From the NCBI GenBank assembly GCA_018662715.1, contig JABJFP010000114.1:1-32933 (forward strand): a DNA stretch of 32,933 nucleotides, written 5' to 3'. The notes beneath the pieces were generated by a model that worked only from the letters and a program-made list of their open reading frames with translations, was not told the DNA's origin and searched no databases. The position numbers and the translations under genes were made by a program. Positions 12,070-28,966 of the stretch are shown piece by piece. The stretch comes from Methanobacteriota archaeon (GTDB taxonomy: Archaea > Thermoplasmatota > Poseidoniia > Poseidoniales > Poseidoniaceae). Within the stretch, counting starts at the first letter, position 1; each line of letters begins with the position of its first letter.

Positions 12070-12089
12070 ACGCTTCTGAAGAGAAGCGT
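12070..12089 (+). terminator. Perfect 8-bp hairpin downstream of tbp
   Basis: ACGCTTCT-GAAG-AGAAGCGT begins 18 nt after the tbp stop and ends immediately before the TGATG at 12090-12094. Confidence 0.4.
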
Positions 12090-12091
12090 TG

Positions 12092-15000
12092 ATGGTCTCT
12101 TTCTCACCTGCGTTCAGCATGGGAAGCAGTAGACGGTCCGTCTTCGTGCCCGGCTTGATGGCCGCATTGCTCCTCGTCACGATGATTCCATTGGAACATC
12201 CAGTGCTTGAAGAATCGTCTACGGTGCTGCATTCAGGAGGATACGACCCCGGCGTCTCTGATGTCCCAACATGGAGAATCGGTGACCGCTGGATATACTC
12301 TGGGACCTTTGATCCAACAATTCTTGTTACCGACACGGGAGTTGACGCCACCGTTGGTGAAATTCAAGGCGACACGACTTCTGAAGTGACTGCAATTTCA
12401 ATGCAAAATGTCGACAACATGTCTGTTCTTGCCTATACCCTACGCTCAAGCGCAAACTTCGATAAATCGGGTGTTTCCCTTGAAGGATTCTCCGGAAACG
12501 TATACATTGAGTACACCCAAACTGAATACCTTCGTGTAAGTGATTTATCCCCAATCCGAAGTGACCTCGACATGTACATACGGTTCGTTCCAAGCGGAAT
12601 TTCGTTCTTGGAACAAATCCTTGGAGACATTACGATCTCGACGACCTATTCTCCAGTCAACGAGAATTATGATTTTCCATTACGAGCCAATGAACGTTGG
12701 ACTACGATGACAACGTCCTATGTCCAATGGTCGGGTCAAAGCGATTACATTACGCCCTTCCCGCCTCCAGTAACTGAAACCAATACCACAACCTGGGTTG
12801 TGTCTGATGTGGGGAGACCTACCAATTCCTTTGGTCAATCGACCGACTATGGTGGTTGCAATGGTTCGTATGAGATGGTGTCGTACAACAGCGAAGGTGA
12901 TTCAGAAGGTTACAGATGGTATTGTCCTGAAGTTGGAAACTATGCTTGGTTACACACCGAAGACGATATTGGACTCACCATTGACTTCCGGCTTAAGCGG
13001 TACGACCCTGTAGGAGCATCAGGAGTTGACCCGTATTCAAATCCAGGCTCAAGAGACTCGTGTCTAGAAGTCAATCCCGAACGAAGCATCACCGCTCTCA
13101 ACACACCAATGCAGGTTTGGGTCAATGCATCCTCAAGTTGCTTTACCAATCCTTCTGGAGTCAATCTTGAACTTCATCATGAACACGAAGGGATTGTCAA
13201 ATCCCTGACAACCGCTGCAAACGGAAGCGCATGGACAACCATTGACATCGGGGATGCACGTGATTCATCCGACAGCCAAACGGACTATGCAAGCCACGGT
13301 TTAGTCGCCAAATCTGGTTCCTTTGTGGGAGCGAGCACCGTCACACTGGACCAATATTTGGTAGGGCTGGATGTGTTCGCTGACGCTGAAGCTGCACAAA
13401 TTCTTAGAAACCGAAGCGGTGTAATCACTCCGCTTAATGCCCTATCAGGTTACAATGTCCTTCCTGGTGATGATTTGGAAATTGAAGTCTCGTTTAACAA
13501 TCGGGGGATCACCGCATCCACCGCAACTGAAGCAGTCATCACCTTACCTGGTGGACTCACCAACAAAGTGCCGCTGCCAGCCCTTGAAACCTATCAGGTG
13601 CACAAGGTGGCTCTCAATTGGACCGTACCGATTACCGCGGAAATCGGCACGCAGAGTTTGATGTGGGAAGCAGACCCTGACGGAATCAATTCTGCTGATG
13701 CTAACCCTTCCAACAATCTTGCTATAATCGACCTCTTTGTTGGACGGGTCCCAACTCCCGTTGTCAACGGCTCATCAGGGCTAACCAACGAATATATCCT
13801 CCTTGACGCCTCGGAAAGTTTCGATGAAGATGGAGGCAATGTCTCCTGCAAATTCAACGTGCCATTTGACGATGGGAGCCGCACTTGGTCCACTCTGAAA
13901 GTGCTATCACCAGATTGCATACTCAACTATTCGTGGATTGATGACGGTTCTTATCCTGTAGAAATCACCGTTATCGACGAAGAACGGGATGAAGTGAATC
14001 TCACCGTTATGGTCGACGTCTTGAACCGTGCACCGTTATTAGAGGTCAGAAGTGCACGAACTGAGGCAATGGTAGAGTATCCCATCACACTCTACGCCTA
14101 TGCAAACGATTCGGATTCAGAAGACGTATGGCCTGGCGTGGTTGATATCTATTGGCCTGGTGCAAACTGTAAGGAAGGATACTACACACGAACATGCACG
14201 ACCACATCAACAAAGGAAGGATGGAACACGTTTACTGCCGTGGGGTTGGATGACGATAGCACCATGGCAACGGCAACGATAGACATCCGGTTTACCAATA
14301 TCAAACCGCACAGCGTGAACATACAACTGGTCGACCAAAATGGGCCGATCCTCATGGACGCCCAGAATACATGGCACGTTACCGAAGACCAACTGGTCCT
14401 GGTGAAAGGGCAAGCACAAGACTCCATTGACGACATTGATGAACTCACCCACACGTGGTGGCCCGATGATGCCCAACCCTCACTCATACGCACATTTGAC
14501 GGGCGCACATCCGAATTTGACATGATCTGGCACGAAGCGGGTTTGCACAAAATGAGGCTTGAAATCACGGACTCCGAAGGTGAATCAAGCGGTGTTGAAG
14601 AACGGTGGATTAGTGTAGCAAACATAGCACCCAGCATAGAGCCACTGGCCCAAATTCTACCTATTGCTGAAGGGCAAAGCATTAGCGTGTCGGGAACTTC
14701 TTCCGATTCAAGTTCCGACCAAGAAACACTGATCCGTTGTTGGGACATTGACCCGAGCATGGACTCCAATGATATCGGCAGCGCAGATGACGATTGTGAC
14801 GTCATTGGCGACAATCTTACTATTTCTTGGAACCGAAGTGGAACCCATAAGTTGGTGTACCACGTGACTGATAATGACGGAGCGCACACGAGTGAAGTTC
14901 TGACGGTTGAAGTATTGAACACACCACCTCTCATTCGTACTGCGAACGTAGCATGTGTAGCCTATGAGCCGTGTACGCTCGATGCGCAATCAACGATTGA

Positions 15001-15628
15001 TGCACTCAATGATTTGGAGGGATTAACCATCGTCTGGGACGTTGATATTGAATTTGATAGTAATGAAGATGGTATTCTCGACAACGACGCTGACATCATC
15101 GGTAAGACCGTCACCTATACGTTCCGTAAAGCAGGAACTCAATCCATCAAAGTGATGGCATGGGATGAGGACCCACAGCGACCGGGAACCAAAGTCATCA
15201 CGTTCGCTGTAGCTCCTGCCGATCGTACAGCATTGGAAAATATCGGGGCTTCGTTGGCTGGAGAAGATGCAAATCCAATGATGCAAGGAGGATTGCTCGT
15301 AGTACTGCTTGGACTTTTGTTGATGTTCTCACGACGAAAATCAAAATCCGGAGAAGAAGAGATGTGGGGTGATGTATCTCAGAGCTTGATGGTTGAAAAT
15401 AATGAATCCCGCGAGGATGCACTTGCTGAAAAGCGTCCAAATTCTCCACCGCCAGAATATCTATTCCAAGTAGCCCTAGAAAATGCGCCGAAGACCATTG
15501 GGGTACACGCTTCACCTCCTGCTGATGGAAACGGCCCTCCGTTACCTGAGACTGGACTTCCCGAAGGGTGGACCGCCGAACAATGGTCTTACTACGGCCA
15601 ACAGTGGCTGGAATCGCAGAATCCGTGA
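12092..15628 (+). CDS. Giant type-I surface protein A: novel N-terminal domain, CARDB domain, multiple PKD-like Ig domains, TM anchor, cytoplasmic tail
   Basis: Signal peptide with an RR (SSRRSVFVPGLMAALLLVTMIP). CARDB-like segment (LEIEVSFNNRG...ADPDGINSADANPSNN). Repeated PKD-type endings (GTHKLVYHVTDNDGAHTSEVLTVEVLN and others). TM helix GGLLVVLLGLLLMF (about 15278-15328). The 99-aa tail contains PPPEY, GPPLPE and GLPEGWTAEQWSYYGQQWL. Alternative start ATG 12119; the track start 12089 is a TTG. Confidence 0.85.
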   Translation: MVSFSPAFSMGSSRRSVFVPGLMAALLLVTMIPLEHPVLEESSTVLHSGGYDPGVSDVPTWRIGDRWIYSGTFDPTILVTDTGVDATVGEIQGDTTSEVTAISMQNVDNMSVLAYTLRSSANFDKSGVSLEGFSGNVYIEYTQTEYLRVSDLSPIRSDLDMYIRFVPSGISFLEQILGDITISTTYSPVNENYDFPLRANERWTTMTTSYVQWSGQSDYITPFPPPVTETNTTTWVVSDVGRPTNSFGQSTDYGGCNGSYEMVSYNSEGDSEGYRWYCPEVGNYAWLHTEDDIGLTIDFRLKRYDPVGASGVDPYSNPGSRDSCLEVNPERSITALNTPMQVWVNASSSCFTNPSGVNLELHHEHEGIVKSLTTAANGSAWTTIDIGDARDSSDSQTDYASHGLVAKSGSFVGASTVTLDQYLVGLDVFADAEAAQILRNRSGVITPLNALSGYNVLPGDDLEIEVSFNNRGITASTATEAVITLPGGLTNKVPLPALETYQVHKVALNWTVPITAEIGTQSLMWEADPDGINSADANPSNNLAIIDLFVGRVPTPVVNGSSGLTNEYILLDASESFDEDGGNVSCKFNVPFDDGSRTWSTLKVLSPDCILNYSWIDDGSYPVEITVIDEERDEVNLTVMVDVLNRAPLLEVRSARTEAMVEYPITLYAYANDSDSEDVWPGVVDIYWPGANCKEGYYTRTCTTTSTKEGWNTFTAVGLDDDSTMATATIDIRFTNIKPHSVNIQLVDQNGPILMDAQNTWHVTEDQLVLVKGQAQDSIDDIDELTHTWWPDDAQPSLIRTFDGRTSEFDMIWHEAGLHKMRLEITDSEGESSGVEERWISVANIAPSIEPLAQILPIAEGQSISVSGTSSDSSSDQETLIRCWDIDPSMDSNDIGSADDDCDVIGDNLTISWNRSGTHKLVYHVTDNDGAHTSEVLTVEVLNTPPLIRTANVACVAYEPCTLDAQSTIDALNDLEGLTIVWDVDIEFDSNEDGILDNDADIIGKTVTYTFRKAGTQSIKVMAWDEDPQRPGTKVITFAVAPADRTALENIGASLAGEDANPMMQGGLLVVLLGLLLMFSRRKSKSGEEEMWGDVSQSLMVENNESREDALAEKRPNSPPPEYLFQVALENAPKTIGVHASPPADGNGPPLPETGLPEGWTAEQWSYYGQQWLESQNP
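15554..15610 (+). other. Conserved W/Y-rich cytoplasmic tail motif, copy in protein A
   Basis: GLPEGWTAEQWSYYGQQWL, 7 residues from the C-terminus. It matches the protein B copy at 15 of 19 positions. Confidence 0.8.
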
Positions 15629-15675: not shown

Positions 15676-18600
15676 ATGAACCGAGATATGTGGAAGGCTG
15701 CCTTCGTCGCCGTTTTGTTTCTTCTCACTCCGATGCTAAACCATGTCGGCCCTGCAACCATCCTCTCCGAGGATAACACTCCCGATAACAGTTCGACTGG
15801 AAACCTCTCAGTGGTTGATGTCCCCAATTACAGAATTGGTGATAAGTGGGTGTATGAGACGAAATTTGACGTCGCACAACTGATCGCCCAAGCCAATGTC
15901 TCTGCATCCCTCAACACACTGACAGGAGATACGGTCAACACGGTCACTGACATCCTCTATGAAACCGACGAAAACGGCAAGTCTGTTCTTGTGTACGAAA
16001 TCACCATTGACGGCTCGTTTAGTTCCGGTAATAGTGGGGCGACTCTTGAAGGAACGAGTGGACGGTTGGAAATTGATTACGATGGAACCGACATCATCCG
16101 AGCAAGAGACCTGGCGACGAGGGAATCCAATTTCAATTTGGATGTTACATTTGCTCCTTTTAACCTCGGGTTTTTGAGCTTCACATTGGCTGATATCAAC
16201 TTTGATAACAGTTACACCCCAGCCAAAGAAACCCATGATTTCCCACTTCGAAACGGCGACCAGTGGTACATGCCCTTCCGCGCAGACACAGTGGTAACAG
16301 GTACGTCTGATTATTTTGACCCGTCGGAATTTGATGGAGGTGGACCCGAAAACTATTCATGGCAGGTCATCAAGAATGATGCCCCCAGTGAAGATGGAGA
16401 CACACCGCAATATTTGGGCTGCGACAATTCATACAAAATCTCAGAATGGAATGAATCAGGAGTCAATACCGGATTCAACTGGTACTGCCCCGATGCCCGA
16501 GGAAGCGCCTGGAACCGAATCATCAATCCAGCAGGATTTACCATTGATTGGATTTTGAAAACGTACAACCCAAGTGATTCAAACAGTGTCATTCCAGCCT
16601 CTTCGCCGGGTGGGCGAAACACCAACCTCAATGTAGCAACGGCCTACTCCGCAACCCTTCCGGACTCCACTGAAACCATTACCGTTGATTACAACGTTGC
16701 AGGCTCACCACCAAATCCGATAGCGAATACGAACCTGCAATTGCGCTATGAAATCGCTGAAACGATCCTTAACCCAACGACGGACCAGAATGGAGTAGCT
16801 CAAATTTCACTAAATGTATCCAACATGACCGACACAACGCCAAGTAGCGACGACCATACCAGCAACGGAGTTGTTGTTTACGACCCGGCTGCAAAAATCG
16901 TCGGAGCCGCTACTGTTGTTCAAGACCTCAGCGTTGTAGGAATTGACCTCATTGCCCAGCCCTCATCAGTCATCGTGGAACGCACAAGAGGGGGTGTCAC
17001 GACAACGCTAGGGGCATCGATTGGCTACAACGCATTACCTGGAGACATGATGATGTTCTCATTGCCCGCTCAAAACCGAGGTGTACTCACATCTCCAGCA
17101 ACCTACATGGAAATTGAGACTCCTGATGGAGTCACATACCGAGAGCCATTAACAGCCATTGGACCGTACTCAGAAGAGCGAGTCATCGTCAACTGGGCAG
17201 TCCCTGAGGAACTAGCAGTGGGAGTTAAGAATCTCAAATTCACTGTGGACCCAGACATGAACGTGACCGCCGATACCAACAAGACGAACAATGATGCTAC
17301 CATTGGAATTTTCATTGGTCGCGCCCCAACCGCTCTTTTTGAGGCAAGTGAAGGAAATTACACTTTTGAAAATGTCACCCTCAACGCTACAGGTAGTTAT
17401 GACGAAGATGGCGGAGAAGTCGATTGTGTCTTTGAGATTGAGTCTCGTGTTGGGCTCATCGATGTTATTGAGGCACCTGATTGCTCCACTCATTGGAACT
17501 GGTCAAACAGCGGCACATGGTCTGTCACGGTCATCGTCATCGACGGTGAATTGGACATTGATGAACTTCAAATTGATGTTGTCATCTTGAACCGGGCACC
17601 TAAATTCAACCTTTCCCATGATGCGACTGTCCCCGTGGAGCAATCCATTACCATCAGTGCAATTGACATTCAAGATATCGACACATCGTCCCCAACTGGG
17701 CAGCAGGTAACCATCTCATGGCCAGGATTGGAATGTACGGAAGGGTTGACCCAGCCCACATGCACGTTCATTCCCACAAGCGAAGGGCCCATGAATATCA
17801 CAGCCATTGCAACCGATGACGATGGTGCCACAACAACGGTAACCAGCCCATTGGACGTGTTGAACATCCCACCAACAATTGGTTTCCCAGAATTATGGAC
17901 CGGTGGGGAACAACTGTTGCAGGACGCAAATGGTACCTGGCACCTTGACGAAGACGAAATCGCATTGCTCCGAATCGTAGCCGACGATACGAGCAATGAC
18001 CAAGGCACGCTCATTGTAGAATGGCTTCCCTCTCTTGCCGATGAAAACTGGACCGTCACCAGCGTTGGAATCTCCTCATCTGAAGCCGTTGCATGGACAA
18101 CATCTGGAATCCATACGTTAAACGTCCGAGCAATTGACAGCGACGGTGCAACATCGGCAACTCAAACTGGCGAGGTTTTGATTCACAACGTCGCTCCCAC
18201 CGTCACAGGATTGCCTGGAAATACTCCGGTGTTTGAAGAGGACAACCTCTCTTTAGAAGTCGTTGCAAGCGATACGGCCTCTGACATTGACACCTTGGAG
18301 ATTTGCTGGGACTTTGACGCCACGGCTGACTTGGATAATGACGGAACTAAGGATAACGATTGTGAACTTACAGGAGCATCAATTTCCAAGTCATGGTCAA
18401 CAACTGGTGTCCGTTGGATCACCGTCACTGTCACCGATGACGATGGAGCAACTGCAACTCAATCGATGAATGTCAGCGTACTCAATCTGCCACCAACTGC
18501 AGTCATCACGCTCGGCACCCTTGCTGATAATCTCATGGAGGGAGATAACCTGACCTTGGACGGAACTCAATCTGTTGAGACAGCGGGTGACAAAACGACT

Positions 18601-19272
18601 CTTATCTACCAGTGGGATGCTTCTTTCTTGGACACCGATTTGGATGGTAACAAGGTCGGAGATGTTGACCACCTCGGCGGAACATGGACCATTGAAGACC
18701 TTCCTGCAGGAACATGGAACATCATACTGACCGTTACCGACGATGATGGTGAATTTCAAACAACAGAACTCTCATTCGTGGTATCAGAAGCGCCTTCTGA
18801 AGGATTGTTTGAGAGTATATCCGACACCGTAGGGACGACCATGACATATGTCATCTTTATATTGGGAATCGTGATTGTTGGGCTTGTTGCCTTCTTGCTG
18901 TTTACAAGAAAGCGGCCCAGTGACGAACTCAAGGGATTCTCTGCCTTCGAACAGCCCTTTGAAGCACCACCAGTCGCTGCAGCCCCGGCCCCGGTAGAAG
19001 CCGCACCACAACCAACATCGTACGCACCGCAACCCGCTGCCGCTGTTGCTGAGCCAATCTATCAAGCCCCAGAACCGGTTAACACCGGCCCACCGATTCC
19101 AGCAACCGGACTTCCTGAAGGATGGAACATGGAACAGTGGAATTACTACGGAGAACAATGGCTAGCAGCAAATGCTGCACCAGCACCGGTCCAACAACCC
19201 ATAGTTTCTAACCCTGCACCAGCACCTGCCTCAACGGAGCTACAATCGTTGTTGGACGATCTCGACTTTTGA
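15676..19272 (+). CDS. Giant type-I surface protein B (paralog of A): same N-terminal domain, CARDB, PKD-like repeats, TM anchor, P/A-rich cytoplasmic tail
   Basis: Signal peptide MNRDMWKAAFVAVLFLLTPML. Blocks colinear with A: DVPNYRIGDKWVY, ATLEGTSGRLEIDY, HDFPLRNGDQW, GCDNSYKISEWNESG...WYCPDARGSAW, TIDWILKTYNP. CARDB segment (...DPDMNVTADTNKTNN). PKD-type units (TGVRWITVTVTDDDGATATQSMNVSVLN and others). TM helix TYVIFILGIVIVGLVAFLLF (about 18835-18903). The 122-aa tail contains GLPEGWNMEQWNYYGEQWL and ends in LLDDLDF. Confidence 0.85.
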   Translation: MNRDMWKAAFVAVLFLLTPMLNHVGPATILSEDNTPDNSSTGNLSVVDVPNYRIGDKWVYETKFDVAQLIAQANVSASLNTLTGDTVNTVTDILYETDENGKSVLVYEITIDGSFSSGNSGATLEGTSGRLEIDYDGTDIIRARDLATRESNFNLDVTFAPFNLGFLSFTLADINFDNSYTPAKETHDFPLRNGDQWYMPFRADTVVTGTSDYFDPSEFDGGGPENYSWQVIKNDAPSEDGDTPQYLGCDNSYKISEWNESGVNTGFNWYCPDARGSAWNRIINPAGFTIDWILKTYNPSDSNSVIPASSPGGRNTNLNVATAYSATLPDSTETITVDYNVAGSPPNPIANTNLQLRYEIAETILNPTTDQNGVAQISLNVSNMTDTTPSSDDHTSNGVVVYDPAAKIVGAATVVQDLSVVGIDLIAQPSSVIVERTRGGVTTTLGASIGYNALPGDMMMFSLPAQNRGVLTSPATYMEIETPDGVTYREPLTAIGPYSEERVIVNWAVPEELAVGVKNLKFTVDPDMNVTADTNKTNNDATIGIFIGRAPTALFEASEGNYTFENVTLNATGSYDEDGGEVDCVFEIESRVGLIDVIEAPDCSTHWNWSNSGTWSVTVIVIDGELDIDELQIDVVILNRAPKFNLSHDATVPVEQSITISAIDIQDIDTSSPTGQQVTISWPGLECTEGLTQPTCTFIPTSEGPMNITAIATDDDGATTTVTSPLDVLNIPPTIGFPELWTGGEQLLQDANGTWHLDEDEIALLRIVADDTSNDQGTLIVEWLPSLADENWTVTSVGISSSEAVAWTTSGIHTLNVRAIDSDGATSATQTGEVLIHNVAPTVTGLPGNTPVFEEDNLSLEVVASDTASDIDTLEICWDFDATADLDNDGTKDNDCELTGASISKSWSTTGVRWITVTVTDDDGATATQSMNVSVLNLPPTAVITLGTLADNLMEGDNLTLDGTQSVETAGDKTTLIYQWDASFLDTDLDGNKVGDVDHLGGTWTIEDLPAGTWNIILTVTDDDGEFQTTELSFVVSEAPSEGLFESISDTVGTTMTYVIFILGIVIVGLVAFLLFTRKRPSDELKGFSAFEQPFEAPPVAAAPAPVEAAPQPTSYAPQPAAAVAEPIYQAPEPVNTGPPIPATGLPEGWNMEQWNYYGEQWLAANAAPAPVQQPIVSNPAPAPASTELQSLLDDLDF
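19108..19164 (+). other. Conserved W/Y-rich cytoplasmic tail motif, copy in protein B
   Basis: GLPEGWNMEQWNYYGEQWL, preceded by GPPIPAT (A has GPPLPET). Confidence 0.8.
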
Positions 19273-19281
19273 GGACATAGT

Positions 19282-19854
19282 ATGGCGAATCTGTGGCAAT
19301 TCTTTGGATTACCTGACCCCGAAGGGAGTACAAGCCGAGAGGCAGCCCCTGCAACGACGCTTACACCGGCCCCAACACCTGTTCATGTTGAACAAACCAC
19401 GCTTGAATCAATTGAGCCTGCGCCCGTGTTGGCCAGCAATGCCCCAACTTCTTCACAGCCATCTCTAGAACGGCTCCAGCCTCCATTGAATTGGACTGGC
19501 CCTGTCACGCCCGATGGAGAACCGTTCCACGACCTTGGACTTCATACTGGACGCCCACAAGCACTTCCATCCAAGGCCCTGAGATATGTGGCCCCTGATG
19601 CCATGAAACGCATTCATTCCCAAGCCATACTCCAACGAGTCCTTCAAGGAGATACCGTCATCGTGGATTTACGACCATTGGTCCATATGGAAAGCCACCA
19701 GATGGCCTGCAGAAGAGAATTGAAGCACATGGGAGATGAGGCAGGAGTCAACATCTTCTCCCTTGACCAAGAAGATAAATTACTCATGATACCTGGAATC
19801 AACGTTGTTGTTGACATGGAGAAACATGAACTTGGGCTTACGCCGCTAATGTGA
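19282..19854 (+). CDS. sepF: SepF-like cell-division protein (FtsZ membrane anchor) with an unusually long P/T/A-rich linker
   Basis: The C-terminal core GDTVIVDLRPLVHMESHQMACRRELKHMGDEAGVNIFSLDQEDKLLMIPGINVVVD follows the archaeal SepF pattern: G-x-hIhhDh..., then an acidic helix, then G-x-I, then ll-h-P-x-v-I. The N-terminus MANLWQFFGL could form an amphipathic membrane-targeting helix. A GAGGA Shine-Dalgarno motif overlaps the upstream stop codon. Confidence 0.6.
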   Translation: MANLWQFFGLPDPEGSTSREAAPATTLTPAPTPVHVEQTTLESIEPAPVLASNAPTSSQPSLERLQPPLNWTGPVTPDGEPFHDLGLHTGRPQALPSKALRYVAPDAMKRIHSQAILQRVLQGDTVIVDLRPLVHMESHQMACRRELKHMGDEAGVNIFSLDQEDKLLMIPGINVVVDMEKHELGLTPLM

Positions 19855-19856
19855 AA

Positions 19857-20468
19857 TCAACCGATGTTGGACAGTTGTTCGAGCATATCCATTGCCGATT
19901 GAGCAATCCCCAAAACCACCGATTCGCTACCGTCTACTAAACGAGCATGCTCACCCATCGCACCGTGAAGGTCGTATCCTCCTGCCTTGCCTTTCCAAGA
20001 GTTAGACCGGATTAAGTCCATCAGAACCTCATCACCGAAGTTTGGAAATTCAACCAGAGCAAACTCACAGAAAAACGTCCACTTCCCCATGAAATGAATC
20101 CCGGTAGCGCTCCAAACCTGATGTCGGCGTCCGGAGAGCCGGTGAAGCATCACAGCGGCTTCCGCTGCGTCACCTGGTTTCCCCATACTGAGCGAATGGT
20201 CGTCAGGGTCACTGATCATGGTATCTGAGACAATGGTCACCTGAGCGCCAGTGAAGTCTGATATCCCTTCGGCTTTCCGTTTGCATATCGTCAACACCTG
20301 ATGGTCAACACTCCCAATTGGTGGGGTTTCATCGACGCCGGGCACCCCCGATTGATGGAGATCAGGGAATAAAAGGTCTAACATCACCTTTCGGCGCTCT
20401 GAATTCGATGCCAGCCAAACCTTCACACTTTGTCCAAGAAGAGGTACAATTTGGTAGTTGCGATTCAT
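19857..20468 (-). CDS. maf: Maf-like nucleoside-triphosphate pyrophosphatase
   Basis: VWLASNSERRKVMLDLL matches the Maf N-terminal ASxSPRR..LL motif. Also present: SDTMIS...SMGKPGDAAEAAVMLHRLSGRRHQVWS, KGKAGGYDLHG and VDGSESVVLGI. The true start is ATG 20468. The track ORF extends to 20717, antisense into the neighbouring gene. Confidence 0.8.
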   Translation of the reverse strand: MNRNYQIVPLLGQSVKVWLASNSERRKVMLDLLFPDLHQSGVPGVDETPPIGSVDHQVLTICKRKAEGISDFTGAQVTIVSDTMISDPDDHSLSMGKPGDAAEAAVMLHRLSGRRHQVWSATGIHFMGKWTFFCEFALVEFPNFGDEVLMDLIRSNSWKGKAGGYDLHGAMGEHARLVDGSESVVLGIAQSAMDMLEQLSNIG

Positions 20469-20516
20469 GAATCCGAAGGGAGAGGTTGAAGAATTGGAAG
20501 GTGTACCGCAGCGTGA

Positions 20517-21245
20517 GTGAGCCGTATGAGTGCAATGGAACGAATCCCTACACATATCGAAGGTCTGGATGAAAAAATGCAAGGTGGTATCCCGCAGGGG
20601 CACATTTGCATCGTCGCAGGGGCATCGGGTGCAATGAAATCCAGCCTTACCTTTTCGATGCTCTACAACGCTGTTCTCTACGGGGAAACAAGTGGAATCT
20701 ATGTTACCCTTGAACAAGGGAAAGAATCGCTACGTTCTCACATGGCAAACATGGGAATGAATGTGGACGACCCTCGTGTCCGAAATCGAATCGCCATTAT
20801 TGACCTCGCTGACCTTCGCGTCAAACTTGACGAACAGGGTATGAGCAACCGTGTTGATTGGATGGGGCAGCTCATCAAGCAACTGACCTCATACCGAGAA
20901 TCAATCGGATTTGAACTCCTTGTTTTCGACTCACTAGGAGCCTTTTTCACCCTTACCAAAATGGAAAACCCTCGTGATGAAATTTTCCGCCTCTTTGAAG
21001 CAACCCGCCGTTTAGGACTGACCTCATTCTTCATCTGTGAAATGACTGGAGATGACCACAAACAGTTTGGTGAATATGGAGTGGAAGATTATCTCTCAGA
21101 TGGAGTAGTCCACCTGGTCATGGAGCGTCATGGAGACGATGTCATGCGGAAAATCGGGGTAGTCAAAATGCGCCACACCAACCACTTGTTAGGTTACAAA
21201 CCGTTCAACTGGAAAGAAGAAGAGCAGCGATTCACAATTTTGTGA
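20517..21245 (+). CDS. Single-domain RecA-superfamily ATPase of the KaiC/GvpD/RAD55 type, with a deviant P-loop
   Basis: ERIPTHIEGLDEKMQGGIPQGHICIVAGASGAMKSSLTF follows the KaiC-like pattern RI.TGI.GLD..L.GGIP.G....I.G.PGTGKT. Walker B is ELLVFDSL. Length of about 240 aa fits. GTG at 20517; ATG alternatives at 20526 and 20535. Confidence 0.75.
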   Translation: MSRMSAMERIPTHIEGLDEKMQGGIPQGHICIVAGASGAMKSSLTFSMLYNAVLYGETSGIYVTLEQGKESLRSHMANMGMNVDDPRVRNRIAIIDLADLRVKLDEQGMSNRVDWMGQLIKQLTSYRESIGFELLVFDSLGAFFTLTKMENPRDEIFRLFEATRRLGLTSFFICEMTGDDHKQFGEYGVEDYLSDGVVHLVMERHGDDVMRKIGVVKMRHTNHLLGYKPFNWKEEEQRFTIL

Positions 21246-23081: not shown

Positions 23082-26000
23082 TCATAGGTCAAATGCAGTC
23101 GAGCAGATTGGACACTTGATTCGTTTTAACATCAAATCTTTGACGGTAAACGCCGCATTACATTCTGGACATTGGGCATCCCGCTTTAGTTCAGGTAGAG
23201 GCATACCACCTGGAAGAGGGAGTTCACCGGGTAAGGGGAGTGGTGGGAGTTGTCCCGGAAGCGGAAGTTCGCCAGGCAAGGGCAGCGGAGGTAATTCGCC
23301 CGGAAGTGGGAGTTCGCCAGGCAAGGGCAGCGCTGGAAGTTGGCCGGGGAGCGGCATGGTTGCTACCATCTCTTGCACTTCTCGCCGTTGTTTCCTCTCC
23401 ATACGGCGTTGAAGACGAGCATTTCCTTCACCGTCTTGCACTTTACGTTCCAACTCTTGAGAAAGAGTTGGGTCTTCAATAACAAGTTCATCCTCCATGA
23501 CCGCACTCATTGAATCACCTACAACAAGGACTGAATCTTCACTGTCTACCGAGAGGAGCGGCCCATCATCGTGTTCGGGCTGAATCATGAGTTCAATAGC
23601 GTCTTGGTGGCCTTCCGATACAAGTACAGCGTCGTTTTCTTTGGAATGCGAACGTCTTACTGCAACAATAACACCAACCAAGAAGAGGCTGATGGTGAGG
23701 ATTGCCCCTGCAAGAATGAGACGTTTTGTTGCATCCGTCCCGGGTAGTGGCCCAAGGAGTAAATCAAGTATTGTGCTTGATTCAATCGAGTCTTGGTTTC
23801 CGGCAAGAGACGCTTGCTTGTAGAGCGAGAACACTCCGTTTGTGGAACTCGAACACAGTAATGTGTCCTCTTCCATGGAGCCTATACCGAACAGAATACC
23901 GTCAACGAGTAGATTCGATAGGCCCTTTACGGCTTGCCCATCCTCGTCAGCCACGAGGCCCCAGCGCACAACTGGGCCGTAATAATTGGTTTCGTCATGG
24001 TAAAGATAAACTCCTTCAGAACGCACTTGAAGATGAACTGAAGTTGCACCAGGCGAGAGGAGGTGGTTCGGTTCATTGATCGACCATACCGAATCGGTCA
24101 CCGCAGAGACGACCCTGGCCGTCCTTCCCATGCCCTCAATCCAAGCCCCAACCAATCGGTCTTCTCCATCAACAACAATGACTTCTAACGCAGCTTCGCC
24201 TACATGATCTCCGACAGATGACTGGAACGTCCACGAAGATTCTGTAAATTCGCCATGCGTATACATCAATCCAGCTCGTTTTATGCCGGTAACATCTTCT
24301 CTGTATTCGTGGTAGAGAATGTGAAGGTATTCGTTACCTAAAGCCACGCTAAGTGCGCTTGAATCGGCGTTGCTAATGTCCACATTTGCAAGGACCGTGA
24401 CGGCATTACCCCATGAAGTACCTCGGTCCGGAGTTGATGATGATAGAACAAAAATCGATGTAATGTCTTGCCATGAGCCACCTGTTGAAAGGTCTCGATG
24501 ATATCCAGCCAGAACCATCGTCCCATCGTATTCATCAAACGTAAAGCCATGATACGTGCCTTCTGTGAGTTTCAAAGGTTGCATGTGATAGTGCTTAGCG
24601 GTTGTTTTTCCAGCGGCAGAGATTGACGTCATGGCAATATCTGTCAGCGTGTAACCTTCTGCATTGATGCTACGACGGCTCCATGCCGCTTGGACCAAAC
24701 CATCATCCCGTTGGTAAACGGCTAACTCTCCACCCCAATCGTTTTCGAGCAGAATATCGCCTGGCATTGCAAGGGATGAAGAGATTGTACGGACATGAAG
24801 TTCTCCGTCCCGAGTTGTAAAGAGCAATCCTCCGTCAGGGAGTCCCACGAATTCAAGTGGTGTTTCTTTTGTAGCCAATGAAAGTGGGGATTTTGATCCC
24901 CCTAGATCGAAGTACCCAACTGTGACATTGAAATACAGTTTACTATGCTCAAATTCAACTCCTGAACCCGTGAGGGTTGCTCGGTATGAAACCACTCCTG
25001 GCTCGGAGACCATATCGGCAAACCGAGCGATGCTAGACCCGGAACCTGTTTCCGAACCCGGTACAAGGGTTAGGGTTACATCATTAGGAGAATCAATAGC
25101 AACATAGAGTCCGGTTTCATAATCTTGCTTCGCAAGACTTACTTTGAGGTTGGTTGCTTGTGTTTCACCAAGGTTATCCACTCGGATGTTGATATCAAAA
25201 GGAGCATCAGGGGTTGGGATCACAGGATTTAATCGGGCAGAACCAGGCAAAAAGCGGAGCATAGGTTCAACCGGACGTTCATCGATTTGGAAGGAAAACG
25301 TGTAGGTGTTATCTTCAGGTTTGGGATCGTTTTGTGCATCGGAGGGGTCAATTAGGACACTAACCTCATGGGAGCCCGCTTCAGTAGCCCACCAATACAG
25401 GGTGGTCTGAACCGATTCCCCTTTGGCAAGGCTGGTGATGTCATCAAAAGATGGGTATGTGGCCGAGTCCTCCCCTGGCCCGTCTAATCGGACATAAATG
25501 TCGTTTGCATCCAAATCTCCGCTGTTGCGGATTTCGAAACGAATTTCAAGAATTGAACCTTCCAAAGCAGAATTCACCTGAAGGCCATCGTCAAAAACCA
25601 CCGGTGCTCCCGTAAAGGAGAAGTCTGGGGATGGAGGGATATTGTCTACGATATACGAACGCATGGAAATGTTGCTTTTGAGCCCAGAGGCATTGAGTGC
25701 CCGGATCTTGATGTCCACTTGTCCATCATCAGAAGCGGTTGAGTCCCAATTGAAGTACCAGTTTACGCTTTTTCCGTCTTCATTGGCAACATCAGTTCCA
25801 AATGTCCAATCTCCACGATCAATTTTGAACTCAATGCGCTCTGCCTCAGTTCCCTCAACCATGCCTGTAAATTCAACAAGTCCTGATAATTTCGTCCCTA
25901 ATGAGGGGCCTGTGAAGTTAATGCCCATGTCTACAATAAGATTCTCATCTGTCACTTCCCCTCCACATTCATCGGCACCTAAAACAAAATCAAGGGCGCA

Positions 26001-27731
26001 AGCAGCATCTACAAGTCCAAAGCCCCATTTGTCATTCCAACGGTCAGAAACAGATGGCTCAGATGCAATTGGTTCACCTGGCTGACTCCTTGACTCGGAT
26101 GAATTTCGTAGAATGTCTTTTATTTCCTCGGGGGTGAGTTCACTATCTGCTTGAAGCATTGCGGCAACGATTCCGGAAACAACTGGCGTAGCCATACTGG
26201 TTCCGCTCTTTGAGTCGTATTCATTATCTGCAAGTGGCCTGTCTGGCTGGCCGGGAATACTTGTACCAATTGCTGCTGAGGCAGAAATAATGTTGCTACC
26301 AAAGGCCGTGATGTCAGGTTTTAATTCATCCCAATCATCATCGTCTCCATCATCCAAACGAGGACCATAATTACTGTAATCTGCGAGGACATCATTCGTT
26401 CTGTTGACTGAATTTCGGTCATCTACGGAACCTATTGAAATCGCCCCATCAGCACTGGCTGGAGATGGTACCCGTTGATTTCCGTCATTCCCCATGGCTA
26501 CGATGCATGCGATTCCGTTCGTAGTTGCAGTATTAACGAGACGAGCCTCAGCCCCTGAACCATTATCTCCATCATCATCTGGATTGAGAGGCGAGGAGAC
26601 TGAACCAAACGACATTGAGGCGACATCAATACCCTTTGCAGAACCGTTACCCGGCCAATCTGTGTCCTTATTGTTAATCATCCATTGCATTCCGCTAATG
26701 GATGCTTGTGAGTTTGTGCCGCCGGAATCAGTGAGGACCTTGATATCAACAAGATAGGCTCCCATTCCGGTTCCGGTGTGTTCGCGATTAGAACCGCCTG
26801 TCCCAATCGCAGTTGCTGCGACGTGAGTGCCGTGGCCTTGCCCGTCATCTGGGTCATCCGTCCCATCGTTGTTTGAACTTGCAGATGTCGCATCGAATCC
26901 AGCGACCCATTTTTGATCATCATAGCTGGTGGCATCACCATCGGGTTCATCGCCCAAATCATCAAAATCGTTGAGAGCACGGTGTTCGTTATCTACGCCG
27001 GTATCCAAGACAGCCACAACGACTCCCACACCGTTATAGCCACGCTCATATGTGCTGTTAGAGTAAGTGTCAGAGGGCATCGACTTTGCTGCTTTGGATG
27101 CGACTCCATTGAAGGGAACCATCACGTTTTGCATTTCGATGACGACAACCCCTTGGAGGTGGTAGATATCCATGAGTGCACTCACAGGAACCTTGTCCAG
27201 AACCACCGCATCGAGGGAATCCAAGACCTGATACCAAGCACCTCGGTCTTCTCCAATCCAGCCATGACTCTCAAGAACTCGTTCTAAATCCTCAAGTTCC
27301 TCGGCTTGTGGCCTCCAAGCATAATCAACGACAATGGCCACAGTCTTTCTCCCATCATCACCGATGATGGACGTTGGAGAGATGGACTCTTGGCCGCTAA
27401 TGACACGCTGTAGGCGGTCATCCATTCCGTTCCAATCCAAATCGGGACCGTAAGCAAGCCACCACATCGAGTCTTCTGATGATGCACGGTCACCTCGGTC
27501 AATCATGCGTGTTGGACGCAAGCAGAGTTCTTCGTCGCACATCAATGGAGGAAGAGAATCAATCAGAATTGGGTCTGTAAAACCGACCTCTTCATCCGCC
27601 GCAGGTTCTTGAGCAAGGGCCATCCCGCTAACATCAGCAATTAAGACGATGAGAGCAAACAAATATGCGGCTCTGCGGTGCGAATTTGTTGCAGAAGATG
27701 TTCTCTCCATTCGCCTCACTATTTCTTGCAT
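23082..27731 (-). CDS. Giant membrane-anchored subtilisin-like (S8) serine protease with CARDB-like domains, C-terminal TM anchor, and a cytoplasmic proline-repeat tail ending in a zinc ribbon
   Basis: The catalytic triad sits in the canonical context: VAVLDTGVD (Asp), GHGTHVAATAIG (His), SGTSMATPVVSGIVAAM (Ser). Signal peptide with an RR (SHRRAAYLFALIVLIADVSGMALA). CARDB-like segments are present (EIRNSGDLDANDIYV...IDPSDAQNDPKPEDN). There is one Asp-box-like TPDRGTSW. TM helix LILAGAILTISLFLVGVIVAV (23658-23720). The tail is 191 aa. ATG 27731 is preceded by a G7 tract 5 nt upstream; the track start GTG 27758 is less likely. Confidence 0.9.
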   Translation of the reverse strand: MQEIVRRMERTSSATNSHRRAAYLFALIVLIADVSGMALAQEPAADEEVGFTDPILIDSLPPLMCDEELCLRPTRMIDRGDRASSEDSMWWLAYGPDLDWNGMDDRLQRVISGQESISPTSIIGDDGRKTVAIVVDYAWRPQAEELEDLERVLESHGWIGEDRGAWYQVLDSLDAVVLDKVPVSALMDIYHLQGVVVIEMQNVMVPFNGVASKAAKSMPSDTYSNSTYERGYNGVGVVVAVLDTGVDNEHRALNDFDDLGDEPDGDATSYDDQKWVAGFDATSASSNNDGTDDPDDGQGHGTHVAATAIGTGGSNREHTGTGMGAYLVDIKVLTDSGGTNSQASISGMQWMINNKDTDWPGNGSAKGIDVASMSFGSVSSPLNPDDDGDNGSGAEARLVNTATTNGIACIVAMGNDGNQRVPSPASADGAISIGSVDDRNSVNRTNDVLADYSNYGPRLDDGDDDDWDELKPDITAFGSNIISASAAIGTSIPGQPDRPLADNEYDSKSGTSMATPVVSGIVAAMLQADSELTPEEIKDILRNSSESRSQPGEPIASEPSVSDRWNDKWGFGLVDAACALDFVLGADECGGEVTDENLIVDMGINFTGPSLGTKLSGLVEFTGMVEGTEAERIEFKIDRGDWTFGTDVANEDGKSVNWYFNWDSTASDDGQVDIKIRALNASGLKSNISMRSYIVDNIPPSPDFSFTGAPVVFDDGLQVNSALEGSILEIRFEIRNSGDLDANDIYVRLDGPGEDSATYPSFDDITSLAKGESVQTTLYWWATEAGSHEVSVLIDPSDAQNDPKPEDNTYTFSFQIDERPVEPMLRFLPGSARLNPVIPTPDAPFDINIRVDNLGETQATNLKVSLAKQDYETGLYVAIDSPNDVTLTLVPGSETGSGSSIARFADMVSEPGVVSYRATLTGSGVEFEHSKLYFNVTVGYFDLGGSKSPLSLATKETPLEFVGLPDGGLLFTTRDGELHVRTISSSLAMPGDILLENDWGGELAVYQRDDGLVQAAWSRRSINAEGYTLTDIAMTSISAAGKTTAKHYHMQPLKLTEGTYHGFTFDEYDGTMVLAGYHRDLSTGGSWQDITSIFVLSSSTPDRGTSWGNAVTVLANVDISNADSSALSVALGNEYLHILYHEYREDVTGIKRAGLMYTHGEFTESSWTFQSSVGDHVGEAALEVIVVDGEDRLVGAWIEGMGRTARVVSAVTDSVWSINEPNHLLSPGATSVHLQVRSEGVYLYHDETNYYGPVVRWGLVADEDGQAVKGLSNLLVDGILFGIGSMEEDTLLCSSSTNGVFSLYKQASLAGNQDSIESSTILDLLLGPLPGTDATKRLILAGAILTISLFLVGVIVAVRRSHSKENDAVLVSEGHQDAIELMIQPEHDDGPLLSVDSEDSVLVVGDSMSAVMEDELVIEDPTLSQELERKVQDGEGNARLQRRMERKQRREVQEMVATMPLPGQLPALPLPGELPLPGELPPLPLPGELPLPGQLPPLPLPGELPLPGGMPLPELKRDAQCPECNAAFTVKDLMLKRIKCPICSTAFDL
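23103..23171 (-). other. C-terminal zinc-ribbon motif of the S8 protease
   Basis: CPECNAAFTVKDLMLKRIKCPIC (CxxC-x15-CxxC), 6 residues from the C-terminus and on the cytoplasmic side of the TM anchor. Confidence 0.7.
23190..23357 (-). repeat. In-frame proline-rich tandem repeat (PLPGELP units; 45-nt / 15-aa super-period)
   Basis: Encodes MPLPGQLPALPLPGELPLPGELPPLPLPGELPLPGQLPPLPLPGELPLPGGMPLPE. The 22-nt string agttcgccaggcaagggcagcg occurs twice on the plus strand (23266-23287 and 23311-23332). Confidence 0.9.
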
Positions 27732-27827
27732 GACAACCCCCCCTTTGAGCCTATCCACTTTTGGGGCTTTGATGATATGGTATCAAGTCACCGGAAAAGC
27801 CATCCAAAAAGGAGCGGAATTCCATCC

Positions 27828-28916: not shown

Positions 28917-28966
28917 GATTCCAAGCGAATAGGAGGGTTCATCCTTGACCCCCAAGTGCAAGAGCC

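What the first reader, a model, noticed from the sequence alone, without database searches (positions are those of the whole stretch)
15554..15610. Nearly identical W/Y-rich 19-residue module in the cytoplasmic tails of both giant paralogs
A has GPPLPET-GLPEGWTAEQWSYYGQQWL (nt 15554-15610). B has GPPIPAT-GLPEGWNMEQWNYYGEQWL (nt 19108-19164). The two copies match at 15 of 19 positions, yet the surrounding tails are otherwise unalignable and the ectodomains are strongly diverged. This is therefore by far the most constrained part of the tails. The LPxGW...YY...W pattern superficially recalls a WW domain, but the first and last Trp are about 11 residues apart rather than about 21. It is more likely a distinct mini-module or a helical docking peptide. 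It sits on the cytoplasmic side of a single-pass anchor, which points to a binding partner inside the cell.
Basis: seen in the sequence. Interest (0 to 1): 0.75.

Follow-up and report, generated by a model that had tools for sequence, protein, structure and literature searches.

The report
Trp-rich cytoplasmic tail tag, Poseidoniales
A 26-residue proline- and tryptophan-rich peptide sits on the cytoplasmic side of the membrane anchors of both giant surface proteins in this window, and of at least four other kinds of surface protein across the abundant ocean archaea Poseidoniales; it matches no described family and is most likely a docking handle that ties surface proteins to something inside the cell.

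Summary
Proteins A (12089-15628) and B (15676-19272) are 33% identical type I surface proteins. Their tails share GPP[LI]PxTGLPEGWxxEQWxYYGxQWL: 15/19 identities, against at most 10 in 1000 shuffles. Nine synonymous codon differences point to protein-level selection, not gene conversion.

A profile search of 1.84 billion proteins found 634 clusters with the module. All but one of the top 150 carry it near a C-terminus, where visible 23-140 residues after a transmembrane helix. All 80 best genome loci carry Poseidoniales-type or unresolved archaeal labels, except one apparently misbinned contig.

The module is not limited to the A/B family. It also ends proteins with unrelated ectodomains: two Ig-like-rich families, an arylsulfotransferase and a subtilase. 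Within the tails it is an island of about 0.83 pairwise identity after a linker at 0.24-0.31.

Basic residues flank only the C-terminal side of the anchor (3.45 versus 0.15 K+R), so the tail is cytoplasmic. AlphaFold predicts a non-helical proline stretch followed by an aromatic helix. It is not a WW domain, and Pfam, NCBIfam, PDB and literature searches found nothing.

Best reading: a lineage-wide docking peptide on a flexible linker. The partner is unknown. The only candidate is a divergent SepF-like gene 9 nt downstream of B.

The parts
12089..15628 (+). Protein A, 1179 aa: N-terminal signal-like hydrophobic segment, PKD/CARDB-containing ectodomain, one C-terminal transmembrane helix, 99-aa cytoplasmic tail
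   Evidence: ORF list and translation; Pfam PKD_4, PKD and weak CARDB; 33% identical to B; orthologues found in 46 ORFs of the related loci
15269..15328 (+). Transmembrane anchor of A (about residues 1061-1080), followed by SRRKSKS
   Evidence: Hydropathy scan; coordinates; positive-inside statistics
15329..15532 (+). Poorly conserved linker of A's tail. It contains a second short conserved motif, RPxxPPxxxF, at 15434-15466
   Evidence: Mean pairwise identity 0.31 over 28 orthologues, with R, P, PP and F nearly invariant. Pooled linker composition is P/A/E/S/Q-rich
15533..15610 (+). W-module of A: GPPLPETGLPEGWTAEQWSYYGQQWL (the finding covers 15554-15610). Five residues (ESQNP) follow before the stop
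   Evidence: conservation 0.83; AlphaFold gives helix AEQWSYYGQQWLESQ preceded by a non-helical stretch at pLDDT about 82
15676..19272 (+). Protein B, 1198 aa, same architecture as A, 122-aa cytoplasmic tail
   Evidence: orthologues found in 50 ORFs
18841..18903 (+). Transmembrane anchor of B (MTYVIFILGIVIVGLVAFLLF), followed by TRKRPS
18904..19086 (+). Pro/Ala-rich, poorly conserved linker of B's tail
   Evidence: Mean pairwise identity 0.24 over 47 orthologues
19087..19164 (+). W-module of B: GPPIPATGLPEGWNMEQWNYYGEQWL
   Evidence: best-conserved 25-residue window of the whole protein
19237..19269 (+). C-terminal peptide of B, ELQSLLDDLDF. It is conserved in B-type tails and absent from A
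   Evidence: L, LL, DD, L and D nearly invariant over 47 orthologues. Present in fragments P0002-P0004 and in divergent B-like genes
19282..19854 (+). 190-aa cytoplasmic protein starting 9 nt after B's stop codon: a divergent SepF-like protein. It is the only candidate partner, on weak evidence
   Evidence: Syntenic in every A/B locus whose held DNA extends past B. No Pfam match and no PDB sequence match. AlphaFold core residues 100-170 at pLDDT about 88. The top eight Foldseek PDB hits are all SepF (3zie TM 0.74-0.79, rmsd 2.2 A, prob 1.0, E 2.7e-3)

Best explanation
The W-module is a short cytoplasmic docking element. Its consensus is G-P-P-[LIV]-P-[EA]-[TS]-G-L-P-E-G-W-T-M-E-Q-W-x-[HY]-Y-G-[QE]-Q-[WY]-L.

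It hangs at or near the C-terminus of single-pass (type I) surface proteins of Poseidoniales, after a flexible, fast-evolving linker of 36-129 residues. It consists of a proline-rich stretch, a GLPxGW turn and a 13-15-residue helix. One face of the helix carries W, W, Y/H, M and L around an invariant Gly.

Proposed mechanism: the module works like a grappling hook. The linker lets it search the space beneath the membrane. The aromatic face, alone or packed against its own proline stretch, binds a shared cytoplasmic partner. In this way many otherwise unrelated surface proteins are tethered, positioned or clustered by one intracellular system.

Shown: the module is real, is cytoplasmic, is under strong purifying selection, was found in the Poseidoniales group, and is shared by at least six ectodomain architectures.

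Inferred: it binds a separate partner. The partner's identity is open. The SepF-like protein encoded 9 nt downstream of B is the only candidate, and the evidence for it is weak.
For: Breadth:
- 634 clusters at E<=1e-3, 254 at E<=1e-10, among 1.84e9 representatives.
- At least 443 confirmed places in GTDB species genomes. All 80 best loci carry Poseidoniales-type or unresolved archaeal labels, apart from one apparently misbinned contig.

Position:
- The module always lies after the last transmembrane helix, 23-140 residues downstream.
- It starts 22-32, 54 or 75-97 residues from the C-terminus in nearly all carriers.

Topology:
- K+R 0.15 before versus 3.45 after the anchor.
- Sequons are enriched in the N-terminal part.

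Selection:
- Module 0.83-0.84 pairwise identity versus linker 0.24-0.31.
- Synonymous codon differences between A and B.
- 256 distinct instances show near-invariant P, P, G, L, P, G, W, E, Q, W, Y, G, L.

Modularity:
- 28 of 124 carriers have no BLAST similarity to A or B outside the module.
- They fall into two Ig-like-rich families, an arylsulfotransferase with TSP3 repeats, and a subtilase.
- They sit in different conserved gene neighbourhoods.

Shape:
- The AlphaFold model has mean pLDDT 76, with a helix over AEQWSYYGQQWLESQ and an ordered non-helical N-terminal half.
- The helix is amphipathic but acidic, with no Lys or Arg. That suits protein binding better than lipid binding.

Architecture:
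- A disordered P/A/E/Q-rich linker followed by a short conserved terminal peptide is the layout FtsZ uses to reach SepF (my own knowledge for the linker; PMC8178401, for the peptide).
- A SepF-fold protein is encoded immediately after B.
Against: - No partner was identified, and no interaction was modelled or measured.
- The SepF-like gene is linked only to the A/B locus. It is not next to the other carrier families.
- The AlphaFold model comes from a shallow 12-sequence alignment (pTM 0.47). I could not inspect its contacts.
- An invariant Gly in the middle of the predicted helix is unusual for a stable helix.
- The same data fit a self-association module equally well in most respects.
- I did not count how many carriers one genome has.
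Confidence: 0.5

Rival explanations
1. Self-association module. The proline stretch folds back on the aromatic helix to form a miniature domain, laid out like the pancreatic-polypeptide fold (polyproline helix, turn, amphipathic helix). This domain would dimerise or oligomerise, pairing A with B or clustering all carriers into a coat from the inside, with no separate partner.
For: - AlphaFold gives the non-helical N-terminal half pLDDT about 82, as though it packs on the helix.
- The helix has a W/W/Y/M/L face around an invariant Gly.
- A and B are always adjacent, and both carry the module.
- Many different carriers share one nearly identical sequence, as expected if they bind each other.
Against: - No oligomer was modelled.
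- I could not read contacts from the model.
- Foldseek found no similar small fold, though the query is probably too short for the method.
- B's W-to-Y change at module position 18 does not track A's residue in the same genome: for example L009 and L012 have A with QQWL and B with EQYL.
Confidence: 0.2
2. Biogenesis or turnover signal. A cytoplasmic factor (targeting factor, chaperone, protease or vesicle-sorting machinery) reads the module to control insertion, quality control, shedding or export of large surface proteins, rather than to anchor them.
For: - It is a lineage-wide tag on diverse secreted-domain proteins, as sorting signals are.
- It sits at or near the C-terminus.
- A rhomboid protease and a membrane-anchored subtilase lie nearby in the window.
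Against: - All carriers with a complete N-terminus have a hydrophobic N-terminal segment, so they need no C-terminal export signal.
- Other anchored exoproteins in the same window lack the module: the subtilase at 23082-27758 and the amidohydrolase at 654-3230.
- No processing enzyme is consistently linked to the carrier families.
Confidence: 0.12
3. Interfacial membrane-binding helix. The Trp/Tyr-rich helix lies in the inner-leaflet interface as a second, reversible anchor or a curvature or lipid sensor.
For: - There are four aromatic residues per 13 residues, and Trp and Tyr favour membrane interfaces (general knowledge).
- The helix is amphipathic.
Against: - Mean hydrophobicity is about 0, hydrophobic moment is only 0.17-0.33, net charge is -2 to -3, and there are no Lys or Arg.
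- The polar face is E/Q/N/D.
- The module lies 36-129 residues from the anchor, not next to it.
- The invariant PPxP and GLPxG half has no role in this model.
Confidence: 0.08
4. A degenerate or shortened WW domain.
For: The LPxGW start and a YY pair resemble WW strands 1 and 2. The best PDB profile hit is the Itch WW segment SGLPEGWEM.
Against: - That hit covers nine residues at E=0.14.
- Pfam WW does not match even at E<=10.
- Trp spacings are 5, 7 and 12, not 20-22.
- The predicted structure is helical.
Confidence: 0.01

Closest known systems
FtsZ C-terminal linker plus conserved C-terminal peptide, which docks on SepF, FtsA or ZipA
   Same: Both have a long, poorly conserved, disordered P/A/E/Q-rich linker ending in a short, highly conserved peptide that is the docking site. 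B in addition ends in LLDDLDF, which resembles the LDDFI core of the M. smithii FtsZ peptide NEDQLDDFIDGIF (PMC8178401). A SepF-fold protein is encoded next to B.
   Different: The W-module is attached to membrane-anchored surface proteins, not to a polymerising GTPase. Its sequence is unrelated to any FtsZ tail. No binding was shown. I did not retrieve the Poseidoniales FtsZ tails.
WW domain (Pfam PF00397)
   Same: LPxGW opening, a YY pair and a later Trp.
   Different: The module is 19-26 residues, not about 35. The Trp spacing is wrong, it is predicted helical, and there is no profile match.
C-terminal sorting tags of prokaryotic surface proteins (PGF-CTERM/archaeosortase, LPXTG/sortase, PEP-CTERM)
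   Same: A lineage-restricted C-terminal tag shared by many otherwise unrelated surface proteins.
   Different: Those tags have the order motif, then hydrophobic helix, then basic cluster at the very end; the motif faces outward and is cleaved (my own knowledge). Here the order is helix, basic cluster, long linker, then the motif on the cytoplasmic side. The only NCBIfam LPXTG match is below threshold and covers just the B anchor.
Cytoplasmic tails of apicomplexan TRAP/MIC2-family adhesins (from my own knowledge, not tested here)
   Same: Type I adhesins with an acidic cytoplasmic tail. A conserved Trp near the C-terminus links them to the intracellular motility machinery, and their anchors are cut by rhomboid proteases. 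A rhomboid gene is present in this window.
   Different: They are eukaryotic, have a single Trp and share no sequence similarity. This is an analogy of logic only.
Pancreatic-polypeptide fold and Trp-cage miniproteins (from my own knowledge)
   Same: A polyproline stretch, a turn and an amphipathic aromatic helix, with a key Gly that allows Pro-aromatic packing.
   Different: Those are secreted hormones or designed peptides. The packing could not be checked because model coordinates are not exposed. Foldseek found nothing.

Membership tests
WW domain | Match to the family profile (PF00397) | tested here: not met
   No Pfam family at E<=10 for either tail. The PDB profile search gives only nine residues of an Itch WW domain at E=0.14.
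WW domain | Two signature Trp residues about 20-22 residues apart in a module of about 35 residues | tested here: not met
   Trp residues are at module positions 6, 11 and 18, and the whole conserved block is 26 residues.
WW domain | Three-stranded antiparallel beta-sheet | tested here: not met
   AlphaFold gives one helix (residues 22-36 of the 38-mer) and no strands. This is a prediction from a shallow alignment.
Sortase- or archaeosortase-type C-terminal sorting signal | Tripartite signal at the extreme C-terminus: signature motif, then hydrophobic helix, then basic cluster | tested here: not met
   The order here is helix, basic cluster, 36-129-residue linker, then the module.
Sortase- or archaeosortase-type C-terminal sorting signal | A cognate sorting enzyme that co-occurs with the tag | not tested
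   No whole-genome census was possible with the sequence held. None is visible in the conserved neighbourhoods.
SepF (applied to the neighbouring 190-aa protein, not to the module) | SepF core fold (beta-alpha-beta-alpha-beta-beta) | tested here: met
   AlphaFold core at pLDDT about 88 with that order of elements. The top eight Foldseek PDB hits are all SepF: TM 0.66-0.79 normalised to the target, prob 1.0, but E only 2.7e-3 to 3.3e-2.
SepF (neighbouring protein) | Match to the SepF sequence profile | tested here: not met
   No SepF Pfam hit at E<=1 for 15 orthologues. No PDB SepF match by sequence profile.
SepF (neighbouring protein) | N-terminal membrane-targeting helix followed by a flexible linker | tested here: inconclusive
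   The conserved N-terminus MxxLWQFFGLPDPEG has a short predicted helix (residues 4-7) and is followed by a region at pLDDT below 50. Its hydrophobic moment is low, at 0.19.
SepF (neighbouring protein) | Binds the FtsZ C-terminal peptide | not testable with these tools
   This needs binding assays or complex modelling.

The most novel reading that the evidence does not exclude
Poseidoniales, which are uncultured and whose envelope is undescribed, couple their surface coat to the FtsZ/SepF system through the cytoplasmic tails of their main surface proteins. In this reading the W-module, and in B-type proteins the FtsZ-tail-like LLDDLDF end, are ligands for the divergent SepF-like protein encoded right after B, or for the cytoskeletal polymer it organises. 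Envelope proteins would then be positioned or inserted by the division machinery. That would be a direct transmembrane link between surface proteins and a tubulin-family cytoskeleton in an archaeon.
Probability: 0.15. Interest if true: 0.85.

Novelty: new variant of a known kind. Interest (0 to 1): 0.6.

Why it matters
Poseidoniales (Marine Group II) are among the most abundant archaea in the surface ocean. None has been cultured, and nothing is known about how their envelope is organised.

A single, almost invariant cytoplasmic peptide shared by at least six kinds of large surface protein implies that one intracellular system handles them all. The peptide is short enough to synthesise, so it offers a practical route to finding that system without a culture: pull-downs with recombinant proteins, or complex prediction against a MAG proteome.

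It is also a clean sequence marker. It could be used to list the anchored surface proteome of any Poseidoniales genome, and it could seed a new family model in the domain databases.

Tried and rejected
- **Chance or gene conversion:** rejected by the shuffle test, the synonymous codon differences and conservation in hundreds of clusters.
- **WW domain:** rejected.
- **Known family:** no match to the tails in Pfam or to the tail peptide in NCBIfam. PDB by sequence profile found nothing significant. The NDUFB5 segment IPEGYVPEHWEYYKH matched only at E about 1, which I treat as chance.
- **Foldseek with the 38-residue model:** one meaningless hit. The query is probably too short for the method.
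- **Literature:** no paper contains the motif strings. The LPEGW and LPEGWT strings occur in the text of a WW-domain review and a methyl-CpG-binding-protein (MBD) paper. Searches on Poseidoniales with tails, S-layers or SepF gave nothing relevant.
- **Viral mimicry:** no copy in IMG/VR contigs.
- **Word-index protein search with the module:** returned only 11 short fragments. The exhaustive profile search was needed to see the full spread.
- **P0081 (5298 aa, 16 stretches):** a spurious proline-rich bacterial repeat protein with no LPxGW.
- **A shared neighbouring gene across all carrier families:** none found.
- **Poseidoniales FtsZ tails:** no ftsZ in the window or in the 80 loci, so the comparison with LLDDLDF could not be made.
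- **Protein B against the PDB by sequence:** no hit.
Full report
**1. The observation**

The two long + strand ORFs, 12089-15628 (A, 1179 aa) and 15676-19272 (B, 1198 aa), translate without interruption. Nucleotides 15554-15610 encode GLPEGWTAEQWSYYGQQWL. Nucleotides 19108-19164 encode GLPEGWNMEQWNYYGEQWL.

The conserved block extends upstream through GPP[LI]Px(T). The full module is therefore 26 residues: A 15533-15610 and B 19087-19164.

A six-frame pattern scan finds these two copies and no others in the window.

A and B are 33% identical over their whole length. The linkers between the membrane anchor and the module share only 9 identities in a global alignment. In 1000 shuffles of the two tails, no 19-mer exceeded 10 identities.

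The two DNA copies are 73% identical. Nine conserved residues use different synonymous codons. The similarity is therefore held by selection on the peptide, not by recent gene conversion.

**2. Host proteins and topology**

The window is archaeal: a TATA-binding protein gene lies just upstream of A. A and B each have:
- a hydrophobic N-terminal segment;
- an ectodomain with PKD and, in A, weak CARDB matches;
- one strongly hydrophobic helix near the C-terminus, followed by SRRKSKS in A or TRKRPS in B.

I pooled 119 carrier proteins from this window and related loci. The 15 residues before the anchor hold 0.15 Lys+Arg on average, and the 15 after it hold 3.45. N-glycosylation sequons are 1.41 per 100 aa before the anchor and 0.38 after it.

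By the positive-inside rule, which is established knowledge, the tail and the module are cytoplasmic.

**3. How widespread the module is**

A word-index search with the module returned only 11 short fragments, but all of them carried the motif.

I then searched a 12-sequence profile (A3) exhaustively against 1.84 billion cluster representatives. It found 634 clusters at E<=1e-3 and 254 at E<=1e-10.

Of the 150 listed, all but one spurious repeat protein (P0081) carry PP[LIV]PxxGLPxGW[TS]MEQWx[HY]YGx[QE][WY]L. In nearly all of them the module starts 22-32, 54 or 75-97 residues from the C-terminus. Where the fragment is long enough to show it, the last hydrophobic helix ends 23-140 residues upstream.

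The best 80 loci have these labels:
- About half are named Poseidoniales, Poseidoniaceae, Poseidonia, Thalassarchaeaceae or Marine Group II.
- The rest carry unresolved labels (Methanobacteriota, Thermoplasmatota, Euryarchaeota archaeon).
- One is labelled Verrucomicrobiales. It has the same gene order as the others, so it is probably misbinned.

No copy was found in viral contigs.

**4. The module is a shared tag, not only a paralogue feature**

The 80 loci hold 124 carrier ORFs:
- 46 are A orthologues.
- 50 are B orthologues.
- 28 have no BLAST similarity to A or B outside the module.

Those 28 fall into the following groups:

| Group | Size / example | Ectodomain |
|---|---|---|
| Ig-like-rich family | 18 ORFs, 1100-1200 aa | No firm Pfam match |
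| Related family | 6 ORFs | CARDB, NEW3, FixG_C |
| Arylsulfotransferase | L075, L026 | With thrombospondin-type-3 repeats |
| Subtilase | L066, 1649 aa | Peptidase S8 |

A BLAST clustering with a coverage filter split off a further pair (L046/L055) from the first family.

Each family sits in its own conserved housekeeping neighbourhood. No neighbouring gene is common to all of them.

In MGIIa-type loci, the gene order Fe-S protein, GHMP kinase, TBP, A, B, 190-aa protein, Maf, GlmS, subtilase is conserved.

**5. Conservation pattern**

Mean pairwise identity across orthologues:

| Region | A (n=28) | B (n=47) |
|---|---|---|
| Ectodomain | 0.69 | 0.59 |
| Anchor | 0.58 | 0.48 |
| Linker | 0.31 | 0.24 |
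| Module | 0.83 | 0.84 |

In B the module is the best-conserved 25-residue window of the entire protein. In A it is the sixth-best non-overlapping window.

From 256 distinct instances, the consensus is G-P-P-[LIV]-P-[EA]-[TS]-G-L-P-E-G-W-T-M-E-Q-W-x-[HY]-Y-G-[QE]-Q-[WY]-L-[DAE]-x-[QN]. Some of these positions were fixed by the regular expression used to collect the instances. The profile hits show the same residues.

The linkers are 36-129 residues long (median 59) and are rich in P, A, E, S and Q.

**6. Shape**

AlphaFold2 on the 38-residue A segment, using the 12-sequence alignment, gives mean pLDDT 76 and pTM 0.47. It predicts one helix over AEQWSYYGQQWLESQ. The preceding LPETGLPEGW is non-helical yet scores about 82.

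On a helical wheel, W, W, Y, M and L together with the invariant Gly lie on one side, and E, Q, N and D on the other. The hydrophobic moment is 0.17-0.33, mean hydrophobicity is about 0, net charge is -2 to -3, and there is no Lys or Arg.

This fits a protein-binding or self-packing surface better than a lipid-binding helix. My suggestion that the proline stretch packs on the aromatic face, as in the pancreatic-polypeptide fold or the Trp-cage, is an inference from my own knowledge. I could not inspect the model's contacts, and Foldseek returned nothing useful for so short a query.

**7. Comparison with known families**

- Pfam gives no family for either tail, even at E<=10.
- NCBIfam gives none for the tail peptide. 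Its only relevant match is a sub-threshold LPXTG hit over B's anchor.
- A PDB profile search gives only SGLPEGWEM of an Itch WW domain (nine residues, E=0.14) and an NDUFB5 segment at E about 1.
- No paper in the library contains the motif strings.

The WW resemblance is limited to the LPxGW opening. Three WW features were tested and not met: profile match, Trp spacing and beta-sheet.

Sortase-type C-terminal signals have the opposite order of elements, so the module is not one of those either.

In functional terms, the nearest analogue is the FtsZ tail: a long disordered linker ending in a short conserved docking peptide.

**8. Surroundings that bear on a partner**

A 190-aa ORF starts 9 nt after B's stop codon (19282-19854). 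It is present in every A/B locus whose held DNA extends past B, and also after the single A/B-like gene of the divergent locus L064.

Sequence methods do not classify it:
- no SepF Pfam match at E<=1 for 15 orthologues;
- no SepF match in the PDB by sequence profile;
- sources call it hypothetical.

Structure prediction does classify it. AlphaFold2 with 25 homologues gives a confident C-terminal beta-alpha-beta-alpha-beta-beta core at pLDDT about 88. The top eight Foldseek PDB hits are all SepF:
- Archaeoglobus 3zie, TM 0.74-0.79, rmsd about 2.2 A;
- Pyrococcus 3zig;
- Bacillus 3zih.

All have prob 1.0, but E-values are only 2.7e-3 to 3.3e-2.

It also has a conserved hydrophobic N-terminus, MxxLWQFFGLPDPEG, followed by a disordered linker. 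That is the layout of SepF.

B-type tails end in a conserved LxxLLDDLD[F/I/L]. The FtsZ peptide that M. smithii SepF binds is NEDQLDDFIDGIF, with LDDFI in the conserved groove (PMC8178401).

This makes the SepF-like protein a candidate partner for B's terminal peptide, and by extension a candidate for the W-module. The link is weak for four reasons:
- It rests on synteny and a resemblance of four or five residues.
- The other carrier families are not next to this gene.
- I could not retrieve the Poseidoniales FtsZ tails.
- Pende et al. list one SepF per Poseidoniales MAG, and I could not check whether it is this protein.

**9. Verdict**

The module is real, cytoplasmic and strongly constrained. 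Every resolved label among the 80 best loci is Poseidoniales-type, and the module matches no described family.

My ranking of explanations:

| Explanation | Confidence |
|---|---|
| Docking peptide on a flexible linker that ties many surface proteins to one intracellular partner | 0.5 |
| Self-association miniature domain | 0.2 |
| Biogenesis or turnover signal | 0.12 |
| Interfacial membrane helix | 0.08 |
| WW domain | 0.01 |

I file it as a new variant of a known kind: a conserved cytoplasmic-tail motif or C-terminal tag on surface proteins. Its sequence, its placement after a long linker on the inner side, and its host lineage have no described counterpart.

Noticed in passing
window 19282-19854 (+): A 190-aa protein starts 9 nt after B. 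Sequence methods find no family for it, but its predicted core matches SepF structures (top eight Foldseek hits). It has a conserved N-terminus MxxLWQFFGLPDPEG and an extra invariant motif W.GP.TPDGEPFHDLG. It is probably a very divergent SepF of Poseidoniales.
   Followed up: yes
window 19237-19269 (+): B-type tails end in the conserved peptide ELQSLLDDLDF. It resembles the LDDFI core of the archaeal FtsZ C-terminal peptide that SepF binds. I could not retrieve the Poseidoniales FtsZ tails for comparison.
   Followed up: partly
window 15434-15466 (+): A-type tails carry a second conserved short motif, RPxxPPxxxF, inside the otherwise variable linker. R, P, PP and F are nearly invariant in 28 orthologues.
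   Followed up: no
window about 23085-23645 (-), C-terminal tail of the subtilase at 23082-27758: The 1558-aa S8 protease also has a C-terminal anchor and a long cytoplasmic tail. The tail has an acidic stretch, EGEGNARLERRMKRKQQREM, LPLPGELP-type proline repeats and a terminal CPxC...CPxC zinc ribbon. This layout is conserved in 11 related loci. Elaborate cytoplasmic tails seem to be a general habit of Poseidoniales exoproteins.
   Followed up: partly
window 27828-28961 (-): A rhomboid intramembrane protease gene lies next to the subtilase. Rhomboids cleave single-pass anchors, so it could shed proteins such as A and B. I did not examine this.
   Followed up: no
window 20517-21245 (+) versus 19857-20717 (-): A KaiC-like ATPase ORF (Pfam E 4.6e-45) overlaps the 5' end of the long Maf ORF. 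The Maf domain starts only at residue 100, so the real Maf start is probably further downstream than the longest ORF suggests.
   Followed up: no
L061, L006, L013, L030, L051, L052, L073 (tails of the Ig-like-rich carrier family): These tails carry an additional conserved motif upstream of the W-module: LPSADE[VI]ANSMYGG..[LI]F.QPPPP. The CARDB/NEW3 family tails (L067, L071, L079) carry SGPPISGPP[IV]S.
   Followed up: no
L064:2548-6264: In this divergent lineage, a single A/B-like gene (30% identical to both) sits between the TBP gene and the SepF-like gene. It carries both the W-module and a terminal ...EDDDLDF. This suggests the B-type tail is the older state and A arose by duplication.
   Followed up: partly
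L058 (NZEQ01000049.1, labelled Verrucomicrobiales bacterium ARS100): This contig has the full Poseidoniales gene order (A, B, SepF-like, Maf, GlmS) at 60-84% identity to the window. It is almost certainly an archaeal contig misbinned into a bacterial MAG.
   Followed up: partly
window 654-3230 (+): An 858-aa protein with a lamin-tail domain and an amidohydrolase domain has eight GGTDN repeats followed by one GGTDND unit, a C-terminal anchor and a short acidic tail without the W-module. So not every anchored exoprotein of this organism carries the tag.
   Followed up: no
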